Of a stretch of DNA of 64,000 nucleotides, positions 470-22,841 are shown in pieces. The stretch comes from an uncultured Clostridia bacterium (lineage in GTDB: Bacteria > Bacillota > Clostridia > TANB77 > CAG-508), in the NCBI GenBank assembly GCA_934149075.1, contig CAKPDR010000009.1, positions 1,565-65,564 on the forward strand, given 5' to 3'. How positions within the stretch are numbered: the first letter of the stretch is position 1; each line of letters opens with the position of its first letter. The notes beneath the pieces are model-generated. The model was given only the letters and a program-made list of their open reading frames with translations, ran no database searches and was not told where the DNA came from. The translations under genes were made by a program, and so were the position numbers.

Positions 470-525
470 AAGTGGTGTCCCCACTGGTAAATTTTTTTAC
501 CATTAATGAGTGTCCCTATTGGTAA
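470..525. repeat. two copies of the GGGACAC palindromic repeat (family 1)
   Basis: aagtggtgtccccactggtaa (470-490) and ttaccattaatgagtgtccctattggtaa (497-525). The same unit occurs at 7780-8053 and 17876-18013. The second copy supplies the last codons and the stop of uvrC. Confidence 0.7.
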
Positions 526-2302
526 AATTTAATATCCTTTGTGCTAAACTTTCATTAATTCCACTTATTTTAGTCAATTCTTCAATACTAGAATTTTTTA
601 TTTTTTCAACACTTCCAAAATGTTTTAATAATGCCTTTTTCTTTAATTCACCAATCCCTTCTATTTCGTCCAGCTCTGATTTAGTGATATCACTATCTCT
701 AAGTTTTCTATGATATGAAATTGCTGTGTCATGTACTTCATCTTGAAATTTTGTTATTAAATTTTTTAAGTTTTCTGAAATTGGTAATTCAATTCTATTT
801 TCATTCATCAACGCCCTAGTTTGATGTTTATCATTCTTTACCATACCAAAAACAGGAATATTTAATTCATATTTTGCTATTGCAGTTTTGGTTGCTCTTA
901 TTTGTGTAATACCTCCATCTGCAAAAATCACATCTGGTAGTCTGCCAAATCCACTAGAATCTGTATTTATTGAATGTTTTAATCTTCTTGTGATAACTTC
1001 TTCCATACATCTTGGGTCATCTTGACCATATACTGTTTTTATTTTAAATCTTCTTGACATATTTCTTTTTATTACACCATCTGCCATTACACACATTCCT
1101 GCAACTATATATTCTCCTGATATGTTTGAAATATCATATGTTTCTATTTTTCTTGGTAACTTGTCTAAACCAAGCACTTCTTTTAATTCTACTAAAATTT
1201 CACTTTTATCTCTTTCTTTATTATCTAATGTAATTTTTGCATTATTGTCTGCCATTTCAACAAAACGTAGTTTTTCACCTTTTTTAGGAGATTTAATTTC
1301 TACTTTTCTTCCCGCTTCTTTACTTAACCATTCTTCTATTGCATTTTTATCTTCTAATTCTTCTCTTACCATTATTTTATTGGGAAGATTTTGTGCATCC
1401 ATATAATATTGCTTTATAAATCCTGATATTATTTCTTTATCTTCCATTTCTTTTAAGTCTTGGAAAAAATAATGTTCCCTTCCTACCATTTTGCTTCCAC
1501 GTACAAAAAAGATTTCTACACATACTTCTATTTCTGATTTAGCAATCCCTATTACGTCTATATTGTTTTCTGTTATGTTTGAAACTTTTTGTTTTTCATT
1601 TACTCTTTCTATCGCTAACATCCTATCTCTTATATATGCCGCTTTTTCATAATTCATATTATTTGCTTCTTCTATCATTTGATTTTGTAAGTCTTTTAAT
1701 ACTTTACTTACTTTTCCATCTAATATATCTATTATCTCATCTATTTGTTTTCTATAATCTTCTTTAGATACATATCCCATACATGGTCCTAAACATCTAT
1801 TTATATGATAGTTTAAGCATGCTCTTGTTTCTGATCTAAAACTTTTACATTGTCGAATTTTGTATTTTTGTTTTATAAAATCTAACATTTCTTTTGCTGC
1901 ACCAGGATTTGCATATGGTCCAAAATATTTAGAACCATCATTTACAATTCTTCTTGTTATTACAACATTAGGATAGTCTGATTTTACATCTATTTTTATA
2001 TATGGGTATGTTTTATCATCTTTTAGTAATACATTAAACTTTGGTCTATTCTTTTTTATTAAATTGCATTCTAATATTAATGCTTCTGCTTCATTATCAA
2101 CTACTATATATTCAAAATGATCTATTAATGATACCATTCTTTTTATTCTTTCAGTTTTGTCTGTTTTTCTAAAATATGATTTTACTCTGTTTTTTAAATT
2201 TACTGCTTTTCCTACATATATTATCTTGTCTTCTGCATCATGCATAATATATACACCTGGTTTGTTGGGTAACATTTTTAGTTGTTCTTCTATGTTAAAC
2301 AT
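503..2302 (-). CDS. uvrC: excinuclease ABC subunit C
   Basis: 599-aa ORF with an N-terminal GIY-YIG motif (GVYIMHDAEDKIIYVGKA), a UvrBC-interaction region, and a C-terminal RNase H-like domain plus (HhH)2 (GIGELKKKALLKHFGS). Confidence 0.95.
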   Translation of the reverse strand: MFNIEEQLKMLPNKPGVYIMHDAEDKIIYVGKAVNLKNRVKSYFRKTDKTERIKRMVSLIDHFEYIVVDNEAEALILECNLIKKNRPKFNVLLKDDKTYPYIKIDVKSDYPNVVITRRIVNDGSKYFGPYANPGAAKEMLDFIKQKYKIRQCKSFRSETRACLNYHINRCLGPCMGYVSKEDYRKQIDEIIDILDGKVSKVLKDLQNQMIEEANNMNYEKAAYIRDRMLAIERVNEKQKVSNITENNIDVIGIAKSEIEVCVEIFFVRGSKMVGREHYFFQDLKEMEDKEIISGFIKQYYMDAQNLPNKIMVREELEDKNAIEEWLSKEAGRKVEIKSPKKGEKLRFVEMADNNAKITLDNKERDKSEILVELKEVLGLDKLPRKIETYDISNISGEYIVAGMCVMADGVIKRNMSRRFKIKTVYGQDDPRCMEEVITRRLKHSINTDSSGFGRLPDVIFADGGITQIRATKTAIAKYELNIPVFGMVKNDKHQTRALMNENRIELPISENLKNLITKFQDEVHDTAISYHRKLRDSDITKSELDEIEGIGELKKKALLKHFGSVEKIKNSSIEELTKISGINESLAQRILNFTNRDTH

Positions 2303-2660: not shown

Positions 2661-2834
2661 TAATTATTAAAATTGCTCAAGGGACGGAGCAATTTTATTT
2701 TGTTTTATACAATTTATAAAAAATTTTTAAATCCCCCAAAAAACACTTGTAACTTTTTACATTTTGCTATAATATATTAAAGTAAATTGAAATATACTAA
2801 ATTCATAGAAAGGAGTATTATCTTTAAATATATT

Positions 2835-2985
2835 CAAGCGCCAGAACACTTTGATCTTTGTGTTGACGAGGTCTAGAGTTATCGATTTTTCGGCGGATGC
2901 TCTAGTGGATTGCTTAATCCATAGTATTAAACAAAAATTAGCAGTAATGCTATAACAGACATTAATACATAAGCAGTATATTTCA
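2835..2985 (+). ncRNA. glmS: glmS ribozyme (GlcN6P-responsive self-cleaving riboswitch)
   Basis: Contains the conserved core AAGCGCCAGAAC...GACGAGG...TCGGCGGATGC directly upstream of the glmS start, in the canonical order. Boundaries are approximate. Confidence 0.85.
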
Positions 2986-3017: not shown

Positions 3018-4859
3018 ATGTGTGGAATTATTGGATATATAGGACATAAAAAAGCAAGTCCTATATTAATTAATGGTCTTTTAAGACTAGAATATAGAGG
3101 ATATGATTCAGCAGGAATTTCTACTGTTGAAAAAAATGGATTATCTATTATGAAAGACAAAGGAAGAGTTAAAAATCTATATAATTTAGATGGAATTGAT
3201 GATTTAACAGGAACTATTGGTATTGCTCATACAAGATGGGCAACACATGGAAAACCATCTAAAGAAAATTCTCATCCTCATTTAGATAATAGTAATAATT
3301 TTTCTGTTGTTCATAATGGAATTATTGAAAATTATAATGACCTAAGAAAATTTTTAATTGATAATGGCTATACTTTCCGTTCTCAAACAGATACAGAAGT
3401 TATACCAAATCTTATACATTATTATTATTCAAAAGATACAAAAAATGATGATTTAAAAGTTTTGCGTGCAGTTCAAAAAGCGTGTATGGATTTAAAAGGT
3501 AGTTTTGCTATTCAAGTGATTTCAAGCTTTATGCCTGATAATATGATTGTTATTAGAAAAGATAGCCCACTTGTTATTGGTAAGGGTGATGGAGAAAATT
3601 ATATTTCTTCTGATATTCCTGCAATCCTATCATTTACTAGAGATTTTTACCTTTTAAATGATTATGAATTTGCTGTTCTTTCTAGAGATACAGTTGATTT
3701 TTATGATATTAATTTAAATAAAATTGTTAAACCTATAAAAACTATTGATTGGAGTGCAAGTAGTGCTGATAAAAATGGTTATGAGGATTATATGTTAAAG
3801 GAAATTTATGAGCAACCTAACTCTGTTAGAGAAACAATAGGTTCTCGTCTACCTGAAAACGAACCTTGTAATTTTGATGATTTAAATTTTACTAAAGAAT
3901 TTTTATCAAGTATAAACAAAATGTATATTGTTGCATGTGGTACAGCAATGCACGCTGGACTTTCAGGTAAATCTGCAATTGAAAAACTTTGCAATATACC
4001 AGTTACTGTTGATATTGCATCTGAATTTAGATATAGAAACCCTATTATTGATAAAAATACTTTATGTATTTATATCTCTCAATCAGGAGAAACAGCGGAT
4101 ACTATTGCTGCATTGAAACTTGCAAAATCTAAAGGTGCTACAACTTTAGCTATTTCAAATGTTATTGGTAGTTCAATTACAAGAGAAGCTGATTATTGTA
4201 TTTATACTCATGCTGGTCCAGAAATTGCTGTTGCTTCAACTAAAGCATATACTGCTCAAGTTGTTTTACTTAATATTTTAGCTGTATACTTTGCAGAAAT
4301 TTTAGAAAGTACTTCAATTTTCGAATTAAAAGATATAAAGTCAGAAATTTCAGCTCTCCCTTCAAAAATTGAAATAGCACTAAAATCTGCTAATAGAATA
4401 GAAGATTTTGCAAAAAATATTTATCAAGAAAAAGATGTATTTTTCTTAGGTAGAGGTGTGGATTACAATACTGCTTTAGAAGGTTCTTTGAAATTAAAAG
4501 AAATTTCATATATTCATTCTGAAGCATATGCTGCTGGTGAATTAAAACATGGTCCAATTGCTTTAATTGAAAATGGTATTACTGTTATTAGTATTATAAC
4601 AGATAAAAACTTAGTTGAAAAAACTATTAGTAATATTCAAGAGGTTATTACCCGTGGTGCAAAAACTTTGGTTGTTACAAATCAAGAATTGCCAAGTAAT
4701 AATATCGATACAATTATTACTGTTCCTGATACTAATGTTTTACTATCACCTATCTTATCAATTGTTCCTTTACAATTACTTTCTTATTTTATTTCAAAAG
4801 AAAAAGGATTGGATGTTGATAAACCTAGAAATCTTGCAAAATCAGTTACAGTTGAATAA
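3018..4859 (+). CDS. glmS: glutamine--fructose-6-phosphate aminotransferase
   Basis: 613 aa with the MCGIIGY N-terminal nucleophile, two SIS domains, and the C-terminal KSVTVE. Confidence 0.97.
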   Translation: MCGIIGYIGHKKASPILINGLLRLEYRGYDSAGISTVEKNGLSIMKDKGRVKNLYNLDGIDDLTGTIGIAHTRWATHGKPSKENSHPHLDNSNNFSVVHNGIIENYNDLRKFLIDNGYTFRSQTDTEVIPNLIHYYYSKDTKNDDLKVLRAVQKACMDLKGSFAIQVISSFMPDNMIVIRKDSPLVIGKGDGENYISSDIPAILSFTRDFYLLNDYEFAVLSRDTVDFYDINLNKIVKPIKTIDWSASSADKNGYEDYMLKEIYEQPNSVRETIGSRLPENEPCNFDDLNFTKEFLSSINKMYIVACGTAMHAGLSGKSAIEKLCNIPVTVDIASEFRYRNPIIDKNTLCIYISQSGETADTIAALKLAKSKGATTLAISNVIGSSITREADYCIYTHAGPEIAVASTKAYTAQVVLLNILAVYFAEILESTSIFELKDIKSEISALPSKIEIALKSANRIEDFAKNIYQEKDVFFLGRGVDYNTALEGSLKLKEISYIHSEAYAAGELKHGPIALIENGITVISIITDKNLVEKTISNIQEVITRGAKTLVVTNQELPSNNIDTIITVPDTNVLLSPILSIVPLQLLSYFISKEKGLDVDKPRNLAKSVTVE

Positions 4860-5725: not shown

Positions 5726-7438
5726 TTATTCTTTATATGTTTTTTTATTTGCAAATTCTTTTAGTTTATTTTCAACTTCTTCCGCAGAAAATAAACCTAA
5801 AACTTCTTGTGCAAGCTCTTTACAATCATATTTCTCTAGTTCACTGATTCTTTTTCTAGCTTTTAATATACTATTTGAGTTCATAGAAAATTCATCTAAT
5901 CCAAGTCCAATTAATAATGGTATATATAGCTCGTCTCCAGCGGCTTCTCCACACATTCCACAGAATATTCCTGCATCATGTGCTCCATCTATTGCTAGTT
6001 TTATAAGTCTTATTACTGACGGATGAAATTTCGTATATAACTTTGATATCTTTTCATTTCCTCTTTCTGCTGCAACAGTATATTGAATCAAATCATTTGT
6101 TCCTATGCTAAAAAAGTCACATTCTTTTGCTAATCCATAAGCAATTAAAGCTGTTGATGGAATCTCTATCATTATACCAACTTTTATATGTTTTTTATAT
6201 GGTATATTTTTAGCGTCTAGTTCTTCTTTACATTCTTCTAATATCTTTTTAGCATCTCTTAATTCTTCAATTGAAGATATCATTGGGAACATTATTGATA
6301 GGTTTCCATAGGCACTTGCTCTTAATATTGCTTTTAATTGTATTTTGAATATTGCTATATTATCTAAGCATAAACGTATTGCTCTATATCCTAAAAATGG
6401 ATTTGCTTCTTTATCTAAATGTAAGTATTTTAATTCTTTATCTCCACCAACATCTAATGTTCTTATTATTACAGGCCTATCTTCCATTTTTTCTGCAACA
6501 GCTTTATATGCATTAAATTGTTCTTCTTCAGTTGGCATGTTTTCACTATCCATGTATAAAAATTCGCTTCTCAATAACCCTACACCTTCAGCTGTATTTT
6601 TTAAAGCTATGTCTGCATCAGCTGGTGTTCCAATATTAGCAACTAATTCAACTACATATCCATCAATTGTTTTTGTTACAGCATCTTTAAATTGTTCTAA
6701 TTCTTCTTTTTCTTTTATTAATTCATTTTTTATTTCTTCTAATTTTTCTTTTTCTTCTTTAGTTGGATTTAAATATATTTCACCTTTTTCACCATCTATT
6801 GCAACATAATCTCCTGTTCTAAGAATTTTTGTAGCTTCTTCTACTTTTGTTATAGCAGGAATTGCATGTGTTCTCGCCATTATAGATGTATGTGAATTTG
6901 TTCCTCCTAATTCTGTTATTATTCCAACTACATTTTCAAAATCCAATTTTGCAGTATCTGATGTTGTTAATTCTGTTGCAACAATTATTGTATCAGGATC
7001 TAATTTACTTATATTAACAGTTTCCTCATTAAATAATTTCGCAATTATTCTATTTTTGATATCTGCAATATCTCTTGCCCTTCCTGCCATATATTCATCA
7101 TCCATGTTTTCAAAAATTTGTATTACACTATTAAAGCCAATTTCTACTGCATATTCTGCACTATAATTTAAATTCGTTATTGCATTTTCAGTTTCTGTAG
7201 TTAGTGTTGGATCTTGCATTATCATTAAGTAAGCACTCATTATCTCTTTTTCTGTCCCACTTGATGAATTTACAATTTCTTCTGTTTCTTTTGTTACTTG
7301 CTCAAGTGCTTCTTTAAATCTTTTCATTTCTTTTTCAGAATCTTCTACTGTCTTTTTTTCAATTTGTCTTTCTTGATTTTTTAAAACAACTATTGTTCCA
7401 AATCCGATTCCTGTAGACACACCTTTTCCTCTTATCAT
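5726..7438 (-). CDS. ptsI: phosphoenolpyruvate--protein phosphotransferase (PTS enzyme I)
   Basis: 570 aa with the GGTNSHTSIMAR phospho-histidine motif and a PEP-utilising C-terminal TIM barrel (FFSIGTNDLIQY). Confidence 0.95.
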   Translation of the reverse strand: MIRGKGVSTGIGFGTIVVLKNQERQIEKKTVEDSEKEMKRFKEALEQVTKETEEIVNSSSGTEKEIMSAYLMIMQDPTLTTETENAITNLNYSAEYAVEIGFNSVIQIFENMDDEYMAGRARDIADIKNRIIAKLFNEETVNISKLDPDTIIVATELTTSDTAKLDFENVVGIITELGGTNSHTSIMARTHAIPAITKVEEATKILRTGDYVAIDGEKGEIYLNPTKEEKEKLEEIKNELIKEKEELEQFKDAVTKTIDGYVVELVANIGTPADADIALKNTAEGVGLLRSEFLYMDSENMPTEEEQFNAYKAVAEKMEDRPVIIRTLDVGGDKELKYLHLDKEANPFLGYRAIRLCLDNIAIFKIQLKAILRASAYGNLSIMFPMISSIEELRDAKKILEECKEELDAKNIPYKKHIKVGIMIEIPSTALIAYGLAKECDFFSIGTNDLIQYTVAAERGNEKISKLYTKFHPSVIRLIKLAIDGAHDAGIFCGMCGEAAGDELYIPLLIGLGLDEFSMNSNSILKARKRISELEKYDCKELAQEVLGLFSAEEVENKLKEFANKKTYKE

Positions 7439-7489: not shown

Positions 7490-7753
7490 CTATTCTCCTA
7501 AATTATTTTTAAAAGCTTTTAAAATTTCTTCCATAGCTTTATCTTCATCTTCTCCATCACATTCAATTTCAATTTCAGTATTTGTTTTTATTCCCAAAGA
7601 CATTATTCCTAAAATTGATTTTGCACTTACTGTTTTTCCATTTGCATTTATATTTATATTACAATTAAATGTACCTGCTAATTTTGCTAATTCTCCTGCT
7701 GGTCTTGCATGTAGACCTGTTTCATTTTTTAAAACTACTTTTTCTTTTTTCAT
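7490..7753 (-). CDS. ptsH: phosphocarrier protein HPr
   Basis: 87 aa from the ATG at 7753 (RBS GGAAG). Has His15 (GLHARPA) and Ser46 (KSILGIMSLG). The 27 extra N-terminal codons in the ORF track are a translation of the repeat. Confidence 0.9.
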   Translation of the reverse strand: MKKEKVVLKNETGLHARPAGELAKLAGTFNCNININANGKTVSAKSILGIMSLGIKTNTEIEIECDGEDEDKAMEEILKAFKNNLGE

Positions 7754-7779
7754 TTTTATAACTTCCTTTCTTACCAATG

Positions 7780-8053
7780 TTACCAGTAGGGACACCCATA
7801 AGTGGTCAAAATCTTTACCAATGGGGACACCCATAAGTGGTCAAAATCTTTACCAGTAGGGACACTCATTAATGGTAAAAGTTTATTATTTAATAATGTT
7901 TAAATAATAAATAATGAATATTAATATTAAATACTCTAACTTTTATTATACCTTTTACCATTAATGAGTGTCCCTACTGGTAAAGATTTTGACCACTTAT
8001 GGGTGTCCCTACTGGTAAAGATTTTAACCACTTATGGGTGTCCCTACTGGTAA
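7780..8053. repeat. composite inverted repeat of family-1 units: two 99-bp arms and a 76-bp AT-rich spacer
   Basis: The left arm (7780-7878) is three tandem units: TTACCAGTAGGGACACCCATAAGTGGTCAAAATCT twice, then TTACCAGTAGGGACACTCATTAATGGTAA. The right arm (7955-8053) is its reverse complement with 3 mismatches by my alignment. Confidence 0.9.
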
Positions 8054-8060
8054 CTCCAGA

Positions 8061-9977
8061 TTATTTTTTTTCATATTCTGGTAAATTATTTTTTAACATT
8101 GCCATAACAGCCATTGAAACTAATGATCCAATAATTATTGATACTAAATACCATATTGGATGTCCAACTGTTGCAATTACGAATATTCCTCCATGAGGTG
8201 CCATTAATGTACAATTAAATACCATTGACAATGCTCCTGTTACTGCTGATCCTGCAACAAATGCTGGTATTGTTCTTAATGGGTCTGCTGATGCAAATGG
8301 AATTGCACCTTCTGATATAAATGATAACCCCATTATATAATTTACATATGCTGCTTGTTTGTCTTTTTTTGCTATTTTCTTTGGGAAGAATGTTGCTAAT
8401 AATGCTATTGCTAATGGTGGTACCATTCCTCCTGCCATAACTGCTGCCATAATTTCATATTGCCCAGACGCTAACATTCCTGTTCCAAATGTATATGCTG
8501 CTTTGTTTACTGGTCCACCTAAATCTATTGCCATCATTCCTCCTAGAATTGCTCCTAGTAATACTTTATTTGCTGTACTCATTGATGATAAGTAATTATT
8601 TATTGCTGTGTTTATTGCTCCTACATATGGATTTATTAATAACATAAATGCACCCATTAACATTATTCCAAATACAGGATATAAAAGAATTGTTTTTATT
8701 CCTTCTATACTTTCTGGTAAATAACTACATATCTTCTTTAGTAATAATACTATATAACCACCAACAAAACCTGCTATTAATGCTCCTAAAAATCCTGAAC
8801 TAACAAGAACTACTGTGCTATCCGTTAATGATGCAAATGTTGTTCCCTGTACTGCTAATATTCCTCCAACAAACCCTACTGCTAATCCTGGTCTATCTGC
8901 AATACTCATTGCGATATATCCAGCTAAGATGTATAGCATTACATTAAATGCTGCTCCTCCTACTGTTTTAAAGAATGCAGCTAATGGTGTATTCATGCCA
9001 AAGTTTGAAGGATTTATTGAATAATCATCAAATAAGAATGCTAATGCTATTAATATTCCTCCACCTACAACAAATGGTAACATATGTGTTACACCATTCA
9101 TCAAGTGTTTATATACTTGTGTTCCAAATCCTTCTTTTTCATTATCATCTTCTTGATTACTCTTATTTGAAGAATGATATGTTTTTGCTTCTGGTGATAA
9201 TACATGTTCAATTAATTCTTGTGGTTTATTTATTCCATCTGCAACTTTTGCTTTTACTAGTTTTTTTCCGTCAAACCTTGATAAATCTACCTTTGTGTCT
9301 GCTGCAATTATTACAGCCTTTGCATTTTTTATTTCTTCTTTTGTGAATTTATTTTTCACTCCAGAAGATCCATGTGTTTCTACTTTTACTTTATGTCCTA
9401 ATTGTGCTCCCATTTTTTCTAGTGCTTCTGCTGCCATATACGTATGTGCAATTCCTGTTGGACACGATGTTATTGCTAATATTTCATATCCATCACTTTC
9501 TTGTTTTGTTTCTTTTAATTTCATTCTTTCGGCTCTATCTATGCACAACATAAATTCTGCTGGCGTTTCTGCATTTAGTAATTCTTTTCTAAATTCTGTA
9601 TCCATTAATAATGTTGATAGTCTACTTAACACGTCTAGGTGTACATTGTCTTTTGTATTCGGTGCTGCAATTAAAAATATTAATTTTGCAGGTTGTCCAT
9701 CTAAAGAATCAAAATTTACTCCATTTGGTATTACCATTGCTGATAATCCCGGTTTTGAAACTGCATTTGTTTTTCCATGTGGTATTGCGATTCCTTCTCC
9801 AATTCCAGTTGTTCCTTCTTCTTCTCTTTCCTTTACTACTCTTTTGTATTCTTCCTTGTTGATAATATTTCCATTGTTTGCCATTAAGTCAACCATTTGG
9901 TTAATTACTTCTTCTTTGCTATGTGCTACACCATTTAATTTGATGGCACTTGTACTTAACAAATCTGTAATTTTCAT
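8061..9977 (-). CDS. fruA: PTS fructose transporter subunit IIABC
   Basis: 638 aa with an EIIA-2 domain (GIAIPHGK), an EIIB-fructose domain (SCPTGIAHTYMAAE), and a polytopic EIIC domain. Confidence 0.93.
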   Translation of the reverse strand: MKITDLLSTSAIKLNGVAHSKEEVINQMVDLMANNGNIINKEEYKRVVKEREEEGTTGIGEGIAIPHGKTNAVSKPGLSAMVIPNGVNFDSLDGQPAKLIFLIAAPNTKDNVHLDVLSRLSTLLMDTEFRKELLNAETPAEFMLCIDRAERMKLKETKQESDGYEILAITSCPTGIAHTYMAAEALEKMGAQLGHKVKVETHGSSGVKNKFTKEEIKNAKAVIIAADTKVDLSRFDGKKLVKAKVADGINKPQELIEHVLSPEAKTYHSSNKSNQEDDNEKEGFGTQVYKHLMNGVTHMLPFVVGGGILIALAFLFDDYSINPSNFGMNTPLAAFFKTVGGAAFNVMLYILAGYIAMSIADRPGLAVGFVGGILAVQGTTFASLTDSTVVLVSSGFLGALIAGFVGGYIVLLLKKICSYLPESIEGIKTILLYPVFGIMLMGAFMLLINPYVGAINTAINNYLSSMSTANKVLLGAILGGMMAIDLGGPVNKAAYTFGTGMLASGQYEIMAAVMAGGMVPPLAIALLATFFPKKIAKKDKQAAYVNYIMGLSFISEGAIPFASADPLRTIPAFVAGSAVTGALSMVFNCTLMAPHGGIFVIATVGHPIWYLVSIIIGSLVSMAVMAMLKNNLPEYEKK

Positions 9978-17559: not shown

Positions 17560-17862
17560 TTACATAAATTTCAAATAAATAACTAAAATAATCTCTAGAA
17601 TCAGTATTACCGGTAATCCTACTGTAAATTTAAGTTTTTTAGTTTTATGTCTAAACGTATACATTCCAGCAATAGTACCAATTCCTCCACCTAATGCAGT
17701 AACAATAAATAATGTTTGTTCTGGAATTCTCCATTTTCCCCACTTGGCTCTTCTTTTATCTGACCACATCATATAAAATCCTATTAGGTTTATAATCACT
17801 AAATAAATTATTATATTTCTTATAGAGAATATATCTCCTATTTGTATATTATTTTCTAGCAT
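17560..17862 (-). CDS. DUF1294 family membrane protein
   Basis: MWSDKRRAKWGKWRIPEQTLF...GGGIGTIAGMYTFRHKTKK is characteristic of DUF1294. Start placed at the ATG at 17862 after AAGGAAG. The upstream ORF-track codons are repeat sequence. Confidence 0.7.
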   Translation of the reverse strand: MLENNIQIGDIFSIRNIIIYLVIINLIGFYMMWSDKRRAKWGKWRIPEQTLFIVTALGGGIGTIAGMYTFRHKTKKLKFTVGLPVILILEIILVIYLKFM

Positions 17863-17875
17863 TTTTCTTCCTTTC

Positions 17876-18013
17876 TTACCAGTAGGGACACTCATTTCTG
17901 GTAATTTTTTTTACCAATAGGGACACCCTTTATATAATTTCATTAATTTTTTTCGCATAAGAGTGTCCCCTGTGGTAACTTTTTTTACCATTAATGGGTG
18001 TCCCCAATGGTAA
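17876..18013. repeat. four family-1 repeat units (two forward, two reverse)
   Basis: ttaccagtagggacactcatttctggtaa (17876-17904), ttaccaatagggacaccc (17911-17928), cgcataagagtgtcccctgtggtaa (17954-17978), ttaccattaatgggtgtccccaatggtaa (17985-18013). The last unit ends 1 nt before the polC stop codon. Confidence 0.8.
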
Positions 18014-18014
18014 A

Positions 18015-21000
18015 TTATCCAAACAAACTCAATTGATTACTTTGACTCATTCCTTCCAAGCAACCGAATTGACGTAATAATTCTGTTACAGAATCACCTA
18101 TTTTTGCACGTATTTTCATATCATCAATTGACATGAATTTTTCTTCTTCTCTTGCTCTCATTATGCTTTCAGCCGCAACTGAACCTAATCCAGCTATACT
18201 ATTTAAAGGAGGACGAATACTATCTCCTTCTACTAAAAATTTTGTTGCATGTGACTTATATAAATCTATTGGTAAAAATCTAAATCCTCTTTCATACATT
18301 TCTAATACTATTTCCAAGTCATCATACATATCTTTGTCTTTTGGTGTTGCTGCATTTCCCATCATATCTATTTCTTTCATTTTATTTTTTACTTTTTCTT
18401 TTCCATTTATCATTGCTTCCGCGTCAAACGCTTTTGCTCTAATTGAATAATATGCTGCATAATATGCAAGTGGAATATGTACTTTGAACCATGCTATTCT
18501 GAAAGCATTTGTCACATATGCTGCTGCATGGGCCTTTGGAAACATGTATTTAATTTTTTCACATGATTTTACATACCAATCAGGTACTCCATGTTCTTCC
18601 ATTAATGGTATATATTCGTCTTTCCATTTTGGTTCTTTACCTTTTGCTACTTTTCCTTTACGTACCGCTTCCATTATTTTAAATGCTTTGTCTGGTGGTA
18701 ATCCTTTTTGCATTAGATATACCATTATATCGTCACGACAACATATTGCTTCTTTTAATGTTACTATTCCTTGTTCTATTAATGTTTGGGCATTTCCTAA
18801 CCATACATCTGTACCATGTGATAATCCTGATAAACGTATTAGTTCATCAAATGTGGTTGGATGTGTGTCCATAAGCATCCCTCTTGCAAATTTTGTTCCA
18901 TATTCAGGTATTCCAAATGTTCCAACTTCTGAATGTATTTGTTCTGGTGTTACTCCTAGGGCTGTTGTTGAATTGAATATTGACATTGTTTCTTTGTCGT
19001 CTAACGGAATTGCTGTTGGTGCTACTCCTGTTATGTCTTGTAACATACGAATTACTGTCGGATCGTCGTGTCCCAGTATGTCTAATTTTAGTAAGTTTCC
19101 GTCTATTGAGTGATAATCAAAGTGTGTTGTTATTATGTCTGAGTTTGGATCATCAGCGGGATGTTGTACTGGTGTAAATTCATATATTTCTCTTCCTTTT
19201 GGTACTACAATTATTCCGCCTGGATGTTGTCCTGTTGTTCTTTTTATTCCAGTACATCCTGCTGAAAGCCTTGTTATTTCTGCTTTATTTACTGGTATAT
19301 TTCTTTCTTCGTAATATTTTTTAACATAACCAAATGCTGTTTTATCTGCAACTGTACCTACTGTTCCTGCTTTAAATGTTGTTCCTTTTCCAAAGATTAC
19401 TTCTGTATATTTATGTGCTTTTGCTTGATATTCTCCTGAGAAGTTTAAGTCTATATCTGGTTCTTTATCTCCATTAAATCCCAAGAATGTTTCAAATGGT
19501 ATGTCCATTCCATCTTTTGCTAATTTTGCACCACATTTGGGGCAGTCTTTATCTGGTAAGTCAAATCCATTTCCTACTCCATAATCTTCAAATTCTGAAT
19601 ATTTGCATTTTGGACATCTATAATGTGGCTTTAATGAGTTTACTTCTGTTATACCTGTCATATATGCTACAAGTGACGAACCTACTGACCCTCTTGATCC
19701 TACTATATATCCATCTTCATTTGATTTCCATACTAATTTTTGTGCTATTATATACATTACTGAATATCCATTACTTATTATTGAATTTAACTCTTTGTCA
19801 AGTCTTGCTTGTACTATTTCTGGCAATGGATCTCCATATAATTCATGTGCCTTGTTATAAGCTATGTTTTTTATATCTTCTTCACATCCTGGTATATGTG
19901 GTGGACATTTTTCAGGTGATATTGGATCTATTCTATCACACATATCTGATATTTTATTTGTGTTTGTTACAACTACTTCATATGCTTTTTCTTCTCCTAA
20001 ATAGCTAAACTCTTGTAACATTTCTTCTGTTGTTCTTAAATATAATGGTGCTTGATTATCTGCATCTTTATATCCTTGACCTGCTTCTAATATACGTCTG
20101 TATATTTCATCTTGTGGATCCATAAAATGGACATCACATGTTGCTACAACTAGTTTGTTTAGTTTTTCTCCTAATTCTACTATTTTACGATTTATGTCTT
20201 TTAAATATTCTCTATCTGGTACTTTTCCATCTCTTACTAAAAAATCATTGTTTCCTATTGGTTGAATTTCTAGATAATCATAATCTCTTGCTATATTTTC
20301 TATTTCTTCATCTGATTTTCCAAGTTCTATTGCTTGATATAATTCTCCCGCCTCACATGCACTTCCTAATATTAAACCTTCTGAATATTTTTTGTATATA
20401 CTTTTTAATATACGTGGTTTTTTATAAAAATAATGTAAATGTGAAAGAGATACTAATTTATATAAATTTCTTAGTCCAATATAATTTTTTGCTAATATTA
20501 TTGCATGATATGTATTTAATTTTTTGTATTCTTCTTTCTTAGCATTTTCATCTCTTCCTATGGTGTCTATTTCTTCAACCTTTGTAACTCCTCTATCTTT
20601 TAATTTTTGTATCATTACATTAAATACTTTAACTGTTGTATCTACATCATCTAATGCTCTATGTGCTACTTCTACTACTATTCCTAATTCATCTGCAATT
20701 TTACCAAGTTTGTATTTTTTCATATTTGGAAATATATCCTTTGCAAGTGTTAATGTGTCTATTACTGTATAATCAAATTCATATCCTAATGCTTTTGCGT
20801 TTTGCTTTAAAAATCCAACATCAAATTTTGCATTATGTGCAACAATTATTGAATCTCCTAAAAATTCTAGTATTTTGGGAAATACTTTATCAATTGTTTC
20901 TGCATCTTTTACCATTTCATCTGTTATGTTTGTAACATCTACAACTCTTTGTGGAATTGGTTTCTCTGGATTTACAAAACAACTAAATTCATCTATTACC

Positions 21001-22841
21001 TCTCCATTTTGTACTTTCATTATTCCAACTTCTGTTATTTTTTCTGTTACTGCTGAAAACCCTGTTGTCTCTAAGTCTAATACACAATAGGTTGTATCTA
21101 ATGGTTGGCCTTTTGCATTTGTTACTGAATTTTCTTTGTCTGGTGCAAGATATGCTTCTACTCCATAAATTACTTTCATATCTTGGTTATCTCTTCCAAG
21201 TAAATGATATGCTTCTGGGAATGCTTGTACAACTCCATGGTCTGTTATTGCTATTGATTTCATTCCCCAGCTCATTGCTCTTTTTATTAAATCCTCTGCT
21301 GATGTCATTGCATCCATTTGACTCATTTTTGTATGCATATGTAATTCTACTCTTTTTACTTCTGCATGGTCTTCTCTTTTTGTCTTTGGTAATGGTTCTG
21401 ACACTACTATTGTATTTGCCATTACAGTTAACTCATTTGAAAAAGCATCCATTTGAGCTCTTCCTGCTAATTTTATCGCTTTCGTTCCTTTTAATCTTTT
21501 TATGATTTTTTTTGCACTATTTCCAGGTAAAAAAGCTTTACATGTCATAGTACTTGTTCCATCATATATGTCTATACTTAAAATTACCTTTCCTGATTTT
21601 GTTTCTTTATCTTCCATTGCTTGTATTTCACCATCTATACATACATTTCCTGTTTCTGGGTTAATATCTACTATTTTTACAAGTGGATCACTTATATTCA
21701 CTGATGAACCTAAAATTAATGGCGTACTGTCATCTTCTTCTGGAAGTGGTGGCATTCCTTCATCTGATATTTCAGCAATTATATTTGCCATTACAGTTAT
21801 ATCTCCTGCATAACTATCAAATCCAGCTTTACCTGTTGTCTTTATTGCCTTTGCTGATTTTATTTTTTCTAATATTTCATTTCCTTTTGCTCCGTCTTCT
21901 GCAAATGATTTACATGTAATTATTCCTGTACCATCATATATTTCGTATATTAACATTCCTTTTCCTGTTTTTGTTTCTCTACATTCACTGTTTACAATTC
22001 TTCCTTCTAGTGTTACTCTTCCAGAATTAGCATCTAATTCTTTTATCTTCATTTTCTTTTCCTTAGCTCTTGATGGTTTTCCAAATATGATATTTTCTGC
22101 TTGTGGTAATTCTTCCATTTCTGGCATATATCCTAGTTCTTCTTCTGGTGGAATAGCATAATCTGCATCATTATATGGTCCTTCTGGAAGTGGTGGAATA
22201 TCTCCTTGTATTTCTGGAGTAGTGTATTGTTCTTCTTGATGTGTTCTTATTGCAATTCCTCTCATTGCTTCATGTACTGCTTGTTCTTCAATCTTTTTTG
22301 TCTTTTCTTGAAATGCTTTTACTTCTTGCTCTTTTATTTTTTCTTCTATATTTACTTTATACTTTTTTCCAAATAAATTATATATTACATTTTCAAGTTC
22401 TCTATCCAATTTTCTTGCTTTTAGGAAATCCGCTCCTTTTATTTGCATATATACATTTACTTTGTTATCGGTTAATTCTACTTTACTTTTTAATAATAGC
22501 AATGGTCTCATTAACGGATATTTATGTGCCATATAGCATATTAAATTTTCCCATTCATCATCAATTCTTTTTATATATATTCCTTCTGGATATGTCATTA
22601 GCATATGTACTTGTTCAAACTGAAATCTTTCTCTTAAGAATTTTTCAAAATACCATATTTCTTTTATTTCTATATATTCCTTTGAAGCCATACCTAGTTC
22701 CAATGTGTTTATTCTTTTTATAAAATTCATTTTTGTTATTACTACATCTGCTATATTACTGTTTGTTTTATAATCACTGAATACATCTCCAATTTTCCTA
22801 CTTTTCTTTATTTCTTGTACTTCTGCCATTTGTTTTTTCAT
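18015..22841 (-). CDS. polC: DNA polymerase III PolC-type, unusually long (1608 aa)
   Basis: Has a PHP domain (VELHMHTKMSQMD), a DEDDh exonuclease (VLDLETTGFS...HRALDD), a polymerase core and a zinc motif (CPKCKY...CPKCG). The N-terminal region carries two tandem OB-fold segments. Confidence 0.97.
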   Translation of the reverse strand: MKKQMAEVQEIKKSRKIGDVFSDYKTNSNIADVVITKMNFIKRINTLELGMASKEYIEIKEIWYFEKFLRERFQFEQVHMLMTYPEGIYIKRIDDEWENLICYMAHKYPLMRPLLLLKSKVELTDNKVNVYMQIKGADFLKARKLDRELENVIYNLFGKKYKVNIEEKIKEQEVKAFQEKTKKIEEQAVHEAMRGIAIRTHQEEQYTTPEIQGDIPPLPEGPYNDADYAIPPEEELGYMPEMEELPQAENIIFGKPSRAKEKKMKIKELDANSGRVTLEGRIVNSECRETKTGKGMLIYEIYDGTGIITCKSFAEDGAKGNEILEKIKSAKAIKTTGKAGFDSYAGDITVMANIIAEISDEGMPPLPEEDDSTPLILGSSVNISDPLVKIVDINPETGNVCIDGEIQAMEDKETKSGKVILSIDIYDGTSTMTCKAFLPGNSAKKIIKRLKGTKAIKLAGRAQMDAFSNELTVMANTIVVSEPLPKTKREDHAEVKRVELHMHTKMSQMDAMTSAEDLIKRAMSWGMKSIAITDHGVVQAFPEAYHLLGRDNQDMKVIYGVEAYLAPDKENSVTNAKGQPLDTTYCVLDLETTGFSAVTEKITEVGIMKVQNGEVIDEFSCFVNPEKPIPQRVVDVTNITDEMVKDAETIDKVFPKILEFLGDSIIVAHNAKFDVGFLKQNAKALGYEFDYTVIDTLTLAKDIFPNMKKYKLGKIADELGIVVEVAHRALDDVDTTVKVFNVMIQKLKDRGVTKVEEIDTIGRDENAKKEEYKKLNTYHAIILAKNYIGLRNLYKLVSLSHLHYFYKKPRILKSIYKKYSEGLILGSACEAGELYQAIELGKSDEEIENIARDYDYLEIQPIGNNDFLVRDGKVPDREYLKDINRKIVELGEKLNKLVVATCDVHFMDPQDEIYRRILEAGQGYKDADNQAPLYLRTTEEMLQEFSYLGEEKAYEVVVTNTNKISDMCDRIDPISPEKCPPHIPGCEEDIKNIAYNKAHELYGDPLPEIVQARLDKELNSIISNGYSVMYIIAQKLVWKSNEDGYIVGSRGSVGSSLVAYMTGITEVNSLKPHYRCPKCKYSEFEDYGVGNGFDLPDKDCPKCGAKLAKDGMDIPFETFLGFNGDKEPDIDLNFSGEYQAKAHKYTEVIFGKGTTFKAGTVGTVADKTAFGYVKKYYEERNIPVNKAEITRLSAGCTGIKRTTGQHPGGIIVVPKGREIYEFTPVQHPADDPNSDIITTHFDYHSIDGNLLKLDILGHDDPTVIRMLQDITGVAPTAIPLDDKETMSIFNSTTALGVTPEQIHSEVGTFGIPEYGTKFARGMLMDTHPTTFDELIRLSGLSHGTDVWLGNAQTLIEQGIVTLKEAICCRDDIMVYLMQKGLPPDKAFKIMEAVRKGKVAKGKEPKWKDEYIPLMEEHGVPDWYVKSCEKIKYMFPKAHAAAYVTNAFRIAWFKVHIPLAYYAAYYSIRAKAFDAEAMINGKEKVKNKMKEIDMMGNAATPKDKDMYDDLEIVLEMYERGFRFLPIDLYKSHATKFLVEGDSIRPPLNSIAGLGSVAAESIMRAREEEKFMSIDDMKIRAKIGDSVTELLRQFGCLEGMSQSNQLSLFG

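What the first reader, a model, noticed from the sequence alone, without database searches (positions are those of the whole stretch)
17876..18013. Family-1 palindromic repeat (TTACCA-N3-GGGACAC-N7-8-TGGTAA) is placed against stop codons and generates false coding sequence
Units with the consensus TTACCARTRGGGACACYCATTAATGGTAA occur at three loci: 470-525, 7780-8053 and 17876-18013, in both orientations, 12 units in all. Each time they lie immediately 3' of a gene. One ends 1 nt from the polC stop and another 7 nt from the fruA stop. At uvrC the repeat provides the final codons (..NRDTH) and the stop codon itself. The repeats also create the spurious N-terminal extensions MGVPxGKDF.. and MSVPTGK.. 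in four ORF-track entries. Targeting the 3' ends of genes inside operons is characteristic of REP/BIME, RUP or BOX-type elements. I do not recognise this particular sequence as a described family.
Basis: seen in the sequence. Interest (0 to 1): 0.5.

Follow-up and report, generated by a model that had tools for sequence, protein, structure and literature searches.

The report
REP-like repeat family in gut Clostridia
The short repeat found at gene ends in this uncultured gut bacterium belongs to a dispersed, vertically inherited REP/REPIN-type family; its likely mobilising enzyme, a single-copy tyrosine transposase flanked by the same repeat, is present in sister genomes, so this is a new member of a known kind of element, not a new kind.

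Summary
Twelve exact TTACCA-N3-GGGACAC units lie at 472-525, 7780-8053 and 17876-18013 (0.39 expected by chance). They abut the uvrC, fruA and polC stops and create four spurious ORF starts.

The REP/BIME-type reading is supported. A genome-collection scan found at least 35 and 37 clusters (149 and 89 units) in two sister MAGs that are 90-95% identical to the window. The outer TTACCA end abuts genes tightly. In 58 of 61 cases it lies within -45..+28 nt of a stop, and 15 ORFs end inside the unit (..FTxGDTH*). In 29 of 48 cases it lies 10-34 nt from a start.

In the sister genomes a single-copy, syntenic Y1 HUH gene (TatD-[Y1]-UDG) lies between inverted repeat dimers. It has HxH and YIHNNP motifs and its best matches are NCBIfam REP_Tyr_transpos and PDB 4ER8.

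Across about 45 metagenomic homologues the gene is nearly always flanked by inverted repeats. In these a GGGGAC box sits in a hairpin loop, and the stem sequence differs between loci but stays complementary.

This matches the published TIRtron/TIRYT class (TIR motif GGGGWSAS; RAYT Group 1 / subclass 2.1). Mobility itself is inferred, not shown. The transposase gene is not in the window.

The parts
472..525 (-). Solo dimer at the uvrC 3' end. It consists of a full unit at 497-525 (reads TTACCAATAGGGACACTCATTAATGGTAA on the - strand), an A/T spacer, and a half unit at 472-490 (TTACCAGTGGGGACACCAC). The unit supplies the last 7 codons and the TAA (503-505) of uvrC.
   Evidence: The same arrangement is found in sister species LT (L025 7072-7122).
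7780..7881 (+). Left arm of a long palindromic (type-B, BIME-like) element: three units with a 35-nt period. The outer end lies 26 nt from the ptsH (HPr) start at 7753.
7882..7951 (.). AT-rich central core of the type-B element. It is 76-78 nt when measured between the full units. It is conserved in length and sequence in 19 loci of three species and occurs in both orientations.
7952..8053 (-). Right arm of the type-B element: three units, 97% complementary to the left arm. The outer end lies 7 nt from the fruA stop (8061).
17876..17929 (+). Dimer (full unit 17876-17904, half unit 17911-17929). The outer end lies 13 nt from the start (17862) of the DUF1294-like gene, and the SD sequence falls in that gap.
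17930..17959 (.). Locus-specific centre between the two inverted dimers. It is not conserved between loci.
17960..18013 (-). Inverted dimer (half unit about 17961-17978, full unit 17985-18013). The outer end lies 1 nt from the polC stop (18015).
503..2302 (-). uvrC. Its C-terminal ..FTNRDTH* is encoded by the repeat.
7490..7753 (-). ptsH (HPr). The true start is at 7753. The longer ORF running to 7834 is a repeat-derived artefact.
   Evidence: the 87-aa product is on record in 278 blocks of the collection
8061..9977 (-). fruA (PTS EIIABC), the gene upstream of the type-B element.
17560..17862 (-). DUF1294-like small membrane protein gene. The MSVPTGKKGRK extension running to 17895 is an artefact.
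18015..22841 (-). polC, the gene upstream of the ++-- element.

Best explanation
What it is. These are copies of a REP/REPIN-like, non-autonomous repeat family. In published terms it is the 'TIR' family of a TIRtron. It belongs to a clade of uncultured, low-GC human-gut Clostridia.

Anatomy (shown). The basic module is a roughly 55-nt dimer: TTACCA-NTR-GGGACAC-YCATTAA-TGGTAA, then an A/T spacer, then TTACCA-NNR-GGGACACCC. The TTACCA/TGGTAA arms form a hairpin stem and the GGGGAC-type box lies in its loop. Modules occur in three forms:
- alone;
- as inverted pairs (REPIN-like);
- as inverted arrays of 21- or 35-nt units around a conserved 76-78-nt AT-rich core (BIME-like).

Association with a transposase (shown). 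In the sister genomes a single-copy, syntenic Y1 HUH tyrosine transposase of the RAYT class (TIRYT / Group 1 / subclass 2.1-like, with a C-terminal HTH) sits between two inverted dimers of this same repeat. The hairpin covaries across homologous systems.

Mechanism (inferred by analogy with IS200/IS605 TnpA and E. coli TnpA-REP). The enzyme recognises the single-stranded hairpin with its box, and cuts and rejoins single-stranded DNA without making target duplications. In this way it has seeded and reshaped copies in the short spacers between genes.

Consequences. The copies are then inherited vertically and persist at orthologous junctions. Array size and architecture drift over time. As a side effect the copies donate stop codons and C-terminal heptapeptides to genes. 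They sit directly 5' of Shine-Dalgarno sequences and make long hairpins in polycistronic transcripts.
For: Dispersal:
- The window holds 12 exact units against 0.39 expected.
- After removing redundancy there are 75 clusters and 250 units.

Defined anatomy:
- In 237 units, positions outside the search pattern are conserved (T8 83%, C18 97%, T20 98%), and half units have a sharp inner boundary.
- Inverted doublets and arrays are common.
- No target duplications were found (4 of 39 at 3 nt or more).

Transposase:
- L042 1683-2445 and L052 6233-6992 match Pfam Y1_Tnp (E 4e-10) and NCBIfam REP_Tyr_transpos (59.8 bits, against IS200 at 18.7 bits).
- The only Y1 hit of the family profile in PDB is 4ER8, E. 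coli TnpA-REP, at E 1.8e-5.
- The invariant residues are N-H-x-H and Y-I-H-N-N-P, which is the class-2 'Y---NP' signature of PMC6006769.
- Inverted dimers flank the gene in L042, L052, L082, L083, L095 and L129.

Vertical inheritance:
- The ACPS-TatD-[Y1]-UDG synteny holds down to 49% protein identity.
- dN/dS of the Y1 domain is 0.10-0.14, similar to the neighbouring genes.

Co-variation of repeat with enzyme:
- Homologues are flanked by TTACCACGGGGACGGAGATAATGGTAA (L089, L086), AGACAAGGGGACGGAGCTTTTGTCT (L093), a box-hairpin-box 47-mer (L091), and many others.
- The mean perfect stem around the box is 6.5 bp. It is 3.1 +/- 0.26 when the 3' sides are exchanged among loci, with a maximum of 4.3 in 500 trials.

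Structural dynamics:
- The fruA-ptsH spacer carries 3+3, 2+1 or a short divergent version in different assemblies.
- Type-B and short forms occur at orthologous junctions.

Literature: TIRs with GGGGWSAS flank TIRYT genes, and some form repeat families arranged in dimers or clusters (PMC3733652).
Against: - No transposition event or empty site was seen. Every orthologous junction I could compare among the three species is occupied. That comparison is biased, because the loci were fetched for having a hit.
- The transposase gene is not in the 64-kb window, and I could not tie a copy to the window's own assembly.
- In the repeat-rich clade the gene carries a conserved 1-nt frameshift. In one widespread lineage (L095/L082) a deletion removes the catalytic Tyr. 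In some genomes the family may therefore be a fossil.
- Within the family the stem does not covary; it is simply conserved. Single units fold weakly (-1.5 to -3.4 kcal/mol).
- The NCBIfam score (59.8 bits) is below the curated cutoff of 80.
- Many other genes are also flanked by these repeats, so flanking of the Y1 gene in this clade would be weak evidence on its own. The argument rests on the co-variation across homologues.
- Previous surveys reported no REP-like sequences next to subclass 2.1 genes (PMC6006769).
Confidence: 0.8

Rival explanations
1. Host-selected 'operon punctuation'. On this reading the elements persist because they work at the RNA level, and the transposase link is historical or irrelevant. 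Possible RNA-level roles are hairpins that protect upstream mRNA from 3' exonucleases, 5' stabilisers or occluders next to the SD, RNase III cleavage sites that uncouple cistrons, and stalling of terminating ribosomes when the hairpin lies within about 15 nt of a stop (as reported for E. coli REPs; that last point is from my own knowledge, not checked here).
For: - The outer end abuts stops (58 of 61 within -45..+28 nt) and starts (29 of 48 at 10-34 nt), whereas the inner ends lie 5-515 nt from genes.
- All compared orthologous junctions are occupied across species at 90-95% identity.
- The transcript across 7754-8075 would form a 103-bp duplex at -202 kcal/mol with z -26.
- Positions outside the search pattern are 97-98% conserved.
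Against: - Tight spacing is also what insertion into very short operon spacers would give.
- The genes involved have nothing in common (uvrC, polC, fruA, infB, mnmG, tsf, acpS, tatD..), and array sizes vary between strains.
- There is no terminator-like signature.
- No expression data are available.
- This reading does not explain why each Y1 homologue is flanked by its own version of the hairpin.
- It is compatible with the best explanation as a secondary role. The confidence given is for it being the main reason the family exists.
Confidence: 0.12
2. Fossil family. A RAYT-type enzyme spread the repeats in an ancestor, but they are no longer mobile in the window's genome. What is seen now is only decay, tandem slippage and recombination.
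For: - A frameshift is shared by GU, LT, L129 and L083-85.
- The L095/L082-type allele lacks the catalytic Tyr and occurs in at least 36 contigs.
- No presence/absence polymorphism was seen.
- Partners are degenerate at polC in GU and LT.
Against: - Both halves of the frameshifted gene are under purifying selection (dN/dS 0.10-0.14 and 0.25).
- Both halves stay open in at least 23 contigs from many samples.
- Units are very uniform, and arms within a locus are 97% identical.
- Architecture differs at orthologous sites.
Confidence: 0.3
3. Operator or binding-site array for a dedicated DNA-binding regulator or nucleoid protein. The iteron-like 21-35-bp repeats would not be a mobile element at all.
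For: - The core is strictly conserved at the sequence level, without covariation inside the family.
- Arrays of 21-nt core-only units resemble iterons next to an AT-rich segment.
- The Y1 protein has a C-terminal HTH.
Against: - There are at least 35 clusters per genome at functionally unrelated genes.
- Units lie 3' of genes and even inside coding ends.
- Copy number varies between strains.
- Across homologous systems the stems change while keeping complementarity. This points to a folded single strand, not a duplex operator.
Confidence: 0.03
4. MITE of a DDE-type transposon (like RUP, BOX or Correia), with only a coincidental neighbourhood to the Y1 gene.
For: Terminal inverted arrays surround a conserved core (type B). 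Multiple subterminal repeats recall the ends of Tn7- or Mu-type elements.
Against: - No target-site duplications were found.
- No DDE transposase carrying these ends appears in about 0.5 Mb of sampled sequence. A tblastn search was run only for Y1, so this point is weak.
- There are no hits in viral contigs.
- The co-variation with Y1 homologues would be unexplained.
Confidence: 0.03

Closest known systems
TIRtrons / TIRYT (Di Nocera, De Gregorio & Rocco 2013, PMC3733652). These correspond to RAYT Group 1 (Bertels et al. 2017, PMC5581495) and TnpA-Y1 subclass 2.1 (Quentin et al. 2018, PMC6006769).
   Same: - A RAYT-like Y1 gene is flanked by terminal inverted repeats that share GGGGWSAS. Here the motif is GGGGACAC in the gene-flanking copies and in 112 of 237 units.
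- The protein is longer than classic RAYTs and has a C-terminal HTH.
- It carries the Y---NP motif.
- The repeats can form families arranged in dimers and clusters.
- The group is reported in Clostridia.
   Different: - The cited studies describe such TIR families as 'moderately abundant', or found no REP-like structure at all next to subclass 2.1 genes. Here the family has at least 150 units in one genome and a clear hairpin with the box in the loop.
- It forms BIME-like arrays around a conserved AT-rich core.
- The gene is strictly syntenic.
- The gene carries a conserved +1 frameshift.
- Assignment to subclass 2.1 was not tested with the authors' own models.
E. coli REP/BIME with TnpA-REP (RAYT Group 2, PDB 4ER8), and Pseudomonas REPINs with Group 3 RAYTs.
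   Same: - Short extragenic hairpin repeats, often as inverted doublets or arrays with linker motifs.
- Located just after stop codons inside operons.
- A single-copy, vertically inherited Y1 gene flanked by inverted repeats.
- Long persistence at orthologous sites.
- 4ER8 is the only Y1 structure hit by the family profile.
   Different: - There is no GC-rich stem.
- The conserved tetranucleotide GT[AG]G is present in only 57% of units, and it lies inside the loop, not at the foot of the hairpin.
- The conserved box is GGGACAC.
- The host is an AT-rich Firmicute.
- The protein has an added HTH domain, and its NCBIfam score is below the cutoff.
IS200/IS605 (IS608, ISDra2) TnpA.
   Same: HUH-Y1 chemistry. 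The enzyme recognises subterminal single-strand hairpins and makes no target duplication. This is the source of the inferred mechanism.
   Different: Those are multi-copy autonomous insertion sequences with short dimeric transposases. Here the gene is single-copy and syntenic, and it scores 18.7 bits against a cutoff of 55 for the IS200 model.
Firmicute MITE-like repeats (pneumococcal BOX, RUP and SPRITE; Enterococcus and Bacillus repeats) and Rickettsia palindromic elements.
   Same: Small intergenic repeats that fold, alter ORF ends and confuse gene callers.
   Different: RUP-type elements have target duplications and insertion-sequence partners of the DDE type, and BOX has a modular A-B-C structure. 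Neither feature is seen here.

Membership tests
REP/REPIN-RAYT system | Short repeat present in tens to hundreds of mostly extragenic copies per genome | tested here: met
   The window holds 12 units against 0.39 expected. The scanned part of two sister genomes holds at least 149 and 89 units in at least 35 and 37 clusters. All are intergenic or overlap at most the last 45 nt of an ORF. A census of the window's own whole genome was not possible.
REP/REPIN-RAYT system | The unit is an imperfect palindrome that forms a hairpin | tested here: met
   A 6-11-bp stem (TTACCA/TGGTAA) encloses a 17-nt loop. Single units fold weakly and show no covariation inside the family. Across about 28 homologous systems, however, the stems differ yet stay complementary: 6.5 bp against 3.1 +/- 0.26 in the exchange control.
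REP/REPIN-RAYT system | Conserved GT[AG]G tetranucleotide at the foot of the hairpin | tested here: not met
   GTAG or GTGG at positions 7-10 occurs in 135 of 237 units (57%). It lies inside the loop, and it is absent from the copies flanking the Y1 gene, which read TTGG or CAGG.
REP/REPIN-RAYT system | Inverted doublets (REPINs) and clusters | tested here: met
   There are 8 '+-', 15 '++--' and about 15 longer convergent arrays among 78 clusters.
REP/REPIN-RAYT system | Single-copy Y1 gene flanked by inverted copies of the same repeat | tested here: met
   This is met in relatives: L042, L052, L082, L083, L095 and L129, with one copy in each sampled genome. It is not present in the 64-kb window, and the rest of the window's genome could not be read.
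REP/REPIN-RAYT system | HUH motif and catalytic Tyr in the Y---NP context, closer to TnpA-REP than to IS200 TnpA | tested here: met
   NH(T/A)H and YIHNNP are invariant in 33 homologues. NCBIfam REP_Tyr_transpos scores 59.8 bits against IS200 at 18.7 bits. The only Y1 hit in PDB is 4ER8.
REP/REPIN-RAYT system | Score above the curated NCBIfam cutoff for REP_Tyr_transpos (NF047646) | tested here: not met
   The score is 59.8 bits and the cutoff is 80.
REP/REPIN-RAYT system | Evidence of mobility (insertion or excision polymorphism) | tested here: inconclusive
   Unit number differs between assemblies at fruA-ptsH (3+3, 2+1, short form), and architecture differs at orthologous junctions. No empty site was found, and the comparison is biased towards occupied sites.
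TIRtron / TIRYT (RAYT Group 1, subclass 2.1) | Terminal inverted repeats flanking the gene and carrying GGGGWSAS | tested here: met
   The flanking arms read TTTTTACCATTGGGGACACCC... Most of about 45 homologues have a GGGGAC(G/A) box in their flanking inverted repeats. The motif definition comes from PMC3733652.
TIRtron / TIRYT (RAYT Group 1, subclass 2.1) | C-terminal helix-turn-helix extension | tested here: inconclusive
   Pfam HTH_24 scores 20.8 bits against a cutoff of 21.9 at residues 217-250. There are weak profile hits to HTH regulators in PDB. Precomputed HTH_24 appears on some homologues.
TIRtron / TIRYT (RAYT Group 1, subclass 2.1) | Placement in subclass 2.1 by the authors' profiles or tree | not tested
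The assignment is inferred from domain layout and the TIR motif.
IS200/IS605 insertion sequence | Multi-copy autonomous element, with a transposase that matches the IS200 model | tested here: not met
   There is one syntenic copy per genome. The IS200 model scores 18.7 bits against a cutoff of 55.
DDE-type MITE (RUP/Correia-like) | Target-site duplication at the ends | tested here: not met
   Only 4 of 39 palindromic clusters have a direct repeat of 3 nt or more at their ends.
Intrinsic terminator | GC-rich stem followed by a T run | tested here: not met
   No terminator-like site overlaps the elements.
Known RNA family (Rfam) | Match at the gathering threshold | tested here: not met
   No Rfam hit falls at any of the three loci.

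The most novel reading that the evidence does not exclude
This would be a living, vertically inherited REPIN-type symbiosis in Firmicutes, run by a Group 1/TIRYT transposase. That group was previously thought not to maintain REP populations.

The enzyme's full-length form would be made only by a programmed +1 ribosomal frameshift at GCU-CGG-A. The non-shifted product would be the bare Y1 domain.

The repeat population would have been co-opted as operon punctuation. It would donate stop codons and sit against Shine-Dalgarno sequences. It would also form RNase III-size duplexes that set the relative expression of neighbouring cistrons in a streamlined gut bacterium.
Probability: 0.15. Interest if true: 0.6.

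Novelty: new member of a known kind. Interest (0 to 1): 0.4.

Why it matters
Annotation. The family corrupts gene calls in a widespread group of uncultured human-gut Clostridia. It produces false N-terminal extensions and repeat-encoded C-termini such as ..FTxGDTH*. It probably also breaks metagenome assemblies, since most contigs carrying the Y1 gene are only about 1 kb long.

Biology. The family extends REPIN-RAYT-type systems to an AT-rich Firmicute lineage and to the RAYT Group 1 / TIRYT branch. Earlier surveys found few or no associated repeats for that branch. The data also give a concrete, testable recognition module: a hairpin with a GGGGAC box in its loop, supported by stem covariation across dozens of homologous systems.

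Further questions. The conserved frameshift in a gene under purifying selection is a candidate recoding site. The strict placement of the element's outer end against stops and Shine-Dalgarno sequences gives a way to ask whether such repeats are tolerated parasites or have become part of operon expression.

Tried and rejected
- Rfam at gathering threshold over the whole window: nothing at the three loci.
- Viral contig scan with the 27-nt pattern: 0 hits, so nothing points to a phage origin.
- Hairpin covariation inside the family at positions 7-9 against 21-23: paired counts equal expectation, so there is no support from within the family.
- Single-sequence PDB search with the Y1 protein: no hit. 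A profile was needed.
- tblastn of the Y1 protein against the window: no copy.
- Exact look-up of the DUF1294-like protein: not on record.
- Target-site duplications: absent.
- Orientation of the type-B core relative to flanking genes: about 7 against 3 by hand. This is not informative.
- Promoter and terminator scans: counts are at shuffle level. One GGGACA-18-TATAAT match points at ptsH.
- Search for empty sites among window, GU and LT: none found, but the design is biased.
- Attempt to link a Y1 allele to the window's own assembly (GCA_964313955.1) through cluster members: the places shown were all ENA contigs, so no link was established.
- CRISPR reading: rejected, because the 35-nt period leaves no unique spacers.
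- Operator reading: rejected on the number and diversity of loci.
Full report
**1. The observation**

TTACCANNNGGGACAC occurs 12 times without mismatch: 475 and 510 on the minus strand; 7780, 7815, 7850 plus and 7968, 8003, 8038 minus; 17876, 17911 plus and 17963, 17998 minus. Shuffles give 0.39 matches, and none of 100 shuffles reaches 13.

- At 7780-8053 the units have a 35-nt period.
- They form two arms of 103 nt that are 97% complementary, around an AT-rich centre.
- As RNA this region would fold at -202 kcal/mol, z = -26.

The outer ends lie 7 nt from the fruA stop and 1 nt from the polC stop. uvrC ends ..NFTNRDTH with its TAA inside the unit at 497-525. The four repeat-derived ORF starts are real mechanical ORFs: MGVPIGKDF, MGVPTGKDF, MSVPTGK and MGVPNGK.

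Two details were missed.
- Inner units are half units that stop at GGGACACCC(Y)T, without the closing TGGTAA.
- The same elements abut the Shine-Dalgarno sequence of the next gene. ptsH starts 26 nt from the element and the DUF1294-like gene 13 nt from it.

**2. It is a dispersed family**

The window is 27-30% GC. It carries Firmicute markers: polC, a glmS ribozyme and sporulation-type sigma genes. An exact look-up of its HPr protein recovered the same locus in other assemblies, including MAG GCA_964313955.1. The fruA-ptsH spacer there holds 3+3 units, 2+1 units, or a short divergent three-unit version without the AT-rich centre.

- Sixty-one come from two 'uncultured Clostridia' MAGs from Hadza gut samples: CAKPGU01 (here called GU) and CAKPLT01 (here called LT).
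- The rest are single matches in unrelated phyla. That is about the number expected by chance for 17 fixed bases in 596 Gb (my arithmetic).
- GU and LT are 90-95% identical to the window where they overlap.
- After removing redundancy there are 75 real clusters: at least 35 with 149 units in GU, at least 37 with 89 units in LT, and 3 with 12 units in the window.
- Viral contigs have none.

**3. Anatomy**

From 237 non-redundant units the conserved core is TTACCA-N-T-R-GGGACAC-Y-C-N-T. Positions that were not part of the search pattern are also conserved: T8 83%, C18 97%, T20 98%.

The recurrent module is a roughly 55-nt dimer with three parts:
- a full unit closed by TGGTAA;
- a 6-nt A/T spacer, so that TGGTAAAAATTTTTACCA is itself a palindrome;
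- a half unit.

Modules occur in these arrangements:
- alone (30 clusters);
- as convergent pairs of dimers '++--' (15 clusters) or of single units '+-' (8 clusters);
- as convergent arrays of 3-5 units of 35 or 21 nt around a 76-78-nt AT-rich core. This core is conserved in 19 loci, in both orientations, in two subfamilies.

This layout parallels REP, REPIN and BIME respectively. There are no target-site duplications.

**4. Position relative to genes**

I used my own codon-usage ORF caller. The outer (TTACCA) end of a cluster lies within -45..+28 nt of a stop codon in 58 of 61 cases. In 15 of these the ORF terminates at the TAA inside the unit. That gives C-termini such as ..FTIGDTH in AcpS and TatD..FTSRDTH in MnmG, and ..FTNRDTH in UvrC.

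The outer end lies 10-34 nt from a start codon in 29 of 48 cases, with the SD directly after TGGTAA. Inner ends lie 5-515 nt from genes.

This is what insertion into very short operon spacers would give. It also leaves room for a role in expression. I did not test that role.

**5. The associated enzyme**

Between a '++' dimer and a '--' dimer in GU (L042 1683-2445), and at the orthologous place in LT (L052 6233-6992), lies a gene with these properties:
- It has a Pfam Y1_Tnp domain (E 4e-10).
- Its best NCBIfam match is 'REP-associated tyrosine transposase', at 59.8 bits. That is below the cutoff of 80. The IS200 model scores only 18.7 bits.
- It has 283 database relatives, and the full-length ones are about 255 aa with a C-terminal HTH.
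- A profile of 33 of these relatives hits one Y1 structure only, E. coli TnpA-REP 4ER8 (E 1.8e-5).
- Its invariant residues include N-H-x-H and Y-I-H-N-N-P, the class-2 'Y---NP' signature.

The gene is single-copy in the sampled DNA. It keeps the neighbourhood ACPS-TatD-[Y1]-UDG down to 49% identity. That is the vertical, housekeeping-like behaviour described for RAYTs (PMC5581495). It is not in the window.

**6. Repeat and enzyme co-vary**

Because many genes in this clade are flanked by the repeat, flanking alone proves little. The test is what flanks homologues elsewhere:
- L089 and L086 (55% and 49% identity, same synteny) are flanked by inverted TTACCACGGGGACGGAGATAATGGTAA.
- L093 (43%) is flanked by AGACAAGGGGACGGAGCTTTTGTCT, with nine copies within 4 kb.
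- L091 (42%) is flanked by a perfect 47-nt inverted repeat, GGGGACGTGTC-hairpin-GGGACACACC, with further copies nearby.

A metagenome scan gave 80 more loci. Nearly all those with both flanks have inverted repeats carrying a GGGGAC(G/A) box.

In 28 systems the box sits in the loop of a hairpin whose stem sequence is different each time but complementary. Examples are AAGGAAAA/TTTTCCTT, GTGCCA/TGGCAC, GGGTGTTTTT/AAAAACACCC and TGAGTCAG/CTGACTCA. The mean perfect stem is 6.5 bp. It is 3.1 +/- 0.26 when the 3' sides are exchanged among loci, with a maximum of 4.3 in 500 trials.

Inside the window's family the stem is simply conserved and shows no covariation, and single units fold weakly. The structural argument therefore rests on the between-system comparison.

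**7. What is known**

Di Nocera et al. 2013 named RAYT-like genes flanked by terminal inverted repeats 'TIRYT' and the units 'TIRtrons'. They found the shared TIR motif GGGGWSAS. They also noted that some TIRs form moderately abundant families organised in dimers or clusters (PMC3733652).

Quentin et al. 2018 equate most TIRYTs with their subclass 2.1, which corresponds to Bertels' RAYT Group 1. That group is long, has a C-terminal HTH and also occurs in Clostridia. They state that they found no REP-like sequences next to those genes (PMC6006769). Bertels et al. found only about 12 occurrences for the commonest flanking 16-mers of Group 1.

GGGGACAC fits GGGGWSAS. It is present in the gene-flanking copies and in 112 of 237 units. 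The classic REP head GT[AG]G is present in only 57% of units, and it lies inside the loop.

I therefore file the family as a new, unusually abundant and well-structured member of the TIRtron/REPIN kind, not as a classic REP. Subclass membership of the protein is inferred, not tested.

**8. How it most likely works**

Shown:
- The family is dispersed.
- It has a defined module.
- It is tied to a RAYT-class gene by flanking and by co-variation.
- Its copies stay at orthologous junctions while their architecture changes. Type-B forms in GU or the window correspond to short forms in LT (L009/L021, L037/L075, window 7780/L025). Unit numbers also differ between assemblies.

Inferred, by analogy with IS608 TnpA and TnpA-REP: the enzyme binds the folded single strand, reads the box, and cuts and rejoins without target duplication.

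Not shown: any transposition event. Every junction I could compare is occupied in all species, but the loci were fetched because they had a hit, so the comparison is biased.

**9. State of the enzyme in this clade**

GU, LT, L129 and L083-85 share a 1-nt insertion: GTA AAA GC[T/C] CGG AAT AGT, against GCA GGA ATT GTT in the outgroups. It splits the gene into a 137-aa Y1 domain and a 123-aa HTH part in the +1 frame.

- Both parts stay open.
- Both are under purifying selection. dN/dS is 0.10-0.14 and 0.25, against 0.09 and 0.07 for the neighbouring UDG and TatD.
- The two-ORF arrangement recurs in at least 23 contigs from many samples.

This suggests a programmed +1 frameshift at a rare CGG codon, or a functional split, and argues against a dead gene.

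A different, also widespread allele (L095/L082, at least 36 contigs) has lost the catalytic Tyr. In those genomes the repeats would be fossils or would depend on something else. I could not determine which allele the window's genome has.

**10. Rivals**

- A purely host-selected RNA-level role fits the strict placement and the long duplexes. It does not explain the co-variation with Y1 homologues. I keep it as a likely secondary layer.
- An operator or iteron reading is contradicted by the number and diversity of loci, and by stems that change while staying complementary.
- A DDE-type MITE reading is contradicted by the lack of target duplications.
- CRISPR, terminator and known-RNA readings fail simple tests.

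**11. Verdict**

The element is ordinary in kind but new in detail. It matters mainly for annotation of a common gut lineage, and as a clean natural example for the little-studied Group 1/TIRYT branch.

Noticed in passing
L042 about 2055-2080. The same site occurs at L052 about 6605-6630, L129 about 1873-1898, and in L083-L085.: The RAYT-like gene has a conserved 1-nt insertion (GCT-C-GGA; outgroups L089 and L086 read GCA GGA). Both halves stay open and are under purifying selection (dN/dS 0.10-0.14 and 0.25). This makes it a candidate programmed +1 frameshift at a rare CGG codon, or a functional split gene.
   Followed up: partly
L095 2501-2977 and L082 1606-2082: An alternative widespread allele (158 aa, at least 36 contigs) carries an internal deletion. 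The deletion removes the catalytic YIHNNP segment and runs into the downstream repeat (..NGCPHW*), so the enzyme is probably dead in that lineage.
   Followed up: partly
window 35278-35308, 35319-35350, 50606-50638. Also GU L037 1567, L053 about 3070-3120, L080 999.: A second, lower-copy palindromic intergenic repeat, TGGGAAAWWTGTACC-N-GGTACAWWWTTYCCC. Each copy lies just 5' of a Shine-Dalgarno sequence. It creates a false N-terminal extension of the ORF 33777-35342. No associated gene was found.
   Followed up: partly
L043 6198-6459, L037 3237-3577, L041, L067, L030, L023: In many long palindromic (type-B) and '+-' elements the palindrome continues 7-15 nt beyond the units, with a sequence specific to each locus. 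Mean inverted identity over 10 nt is 4.8, against 3.4 +/- 0.26 in controls. Possible causes are insertion into pre-existing hairpins or arm-to-arm correction. This remains unexplained.
   Followed up: partly
L056 2394-2776: A roughly 330-nt insert with its own terminal inverted repeats of about 45 nt (TTGCTTATACTGTTAACCTTACACTAAGCAATAAATGTAAA..) sits exactly in the centre of a '++--' element. It may be another small mobile element or an RNA gene nested in the repeat.
   Followed up: no
window 7945-7974 (-): GGGACA-18 nt-TATAAT, made of one unit plus the AT-rich core, is a 10/12 sigma-70-like match pointing at ptsH-ptsI. The overall promoter count is at shuffle level, so this is only a lead that type-B elements could carry an outward promoter.
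   Followed up: no
L057 2089-2258 (GU) versus L055 6307-6392 (LT): At this orthologous junction the two species differ by the precise presence or absence of the inner 'half unit-centre-half unit' segment. The segment is bounded on both sides by TGGTAA-A7/8. This is compatible with nested insertion or excision, or with deletion between short direct repeats.
   Followed up: partly
window 2826-2978 (+) and 44719-45028 (-): A glmS ribozyme lies upstream of glmS, and there are group II intron domain matches (D1-D4), so another mobile element is present in the window.
   Followed up: no
L054 868-1044 and L024 (orthologue); L039 2478-2735: Small genes (a 58-aa protein, MPNKHQIQRDFYRKQKEW..; a DUF1653-like 85-aa protein) lie wholly between two inverted dimers, in the position the Y1 gene occupies at its own locus.
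   Followed up: no
one search hit table: Most contigs carrying relatives of the Y1 gene are only about 1-3 kb long. This suggests that the flanking repeats routinely break short-read metagenome assemblies at this locus.
   Followed up: no
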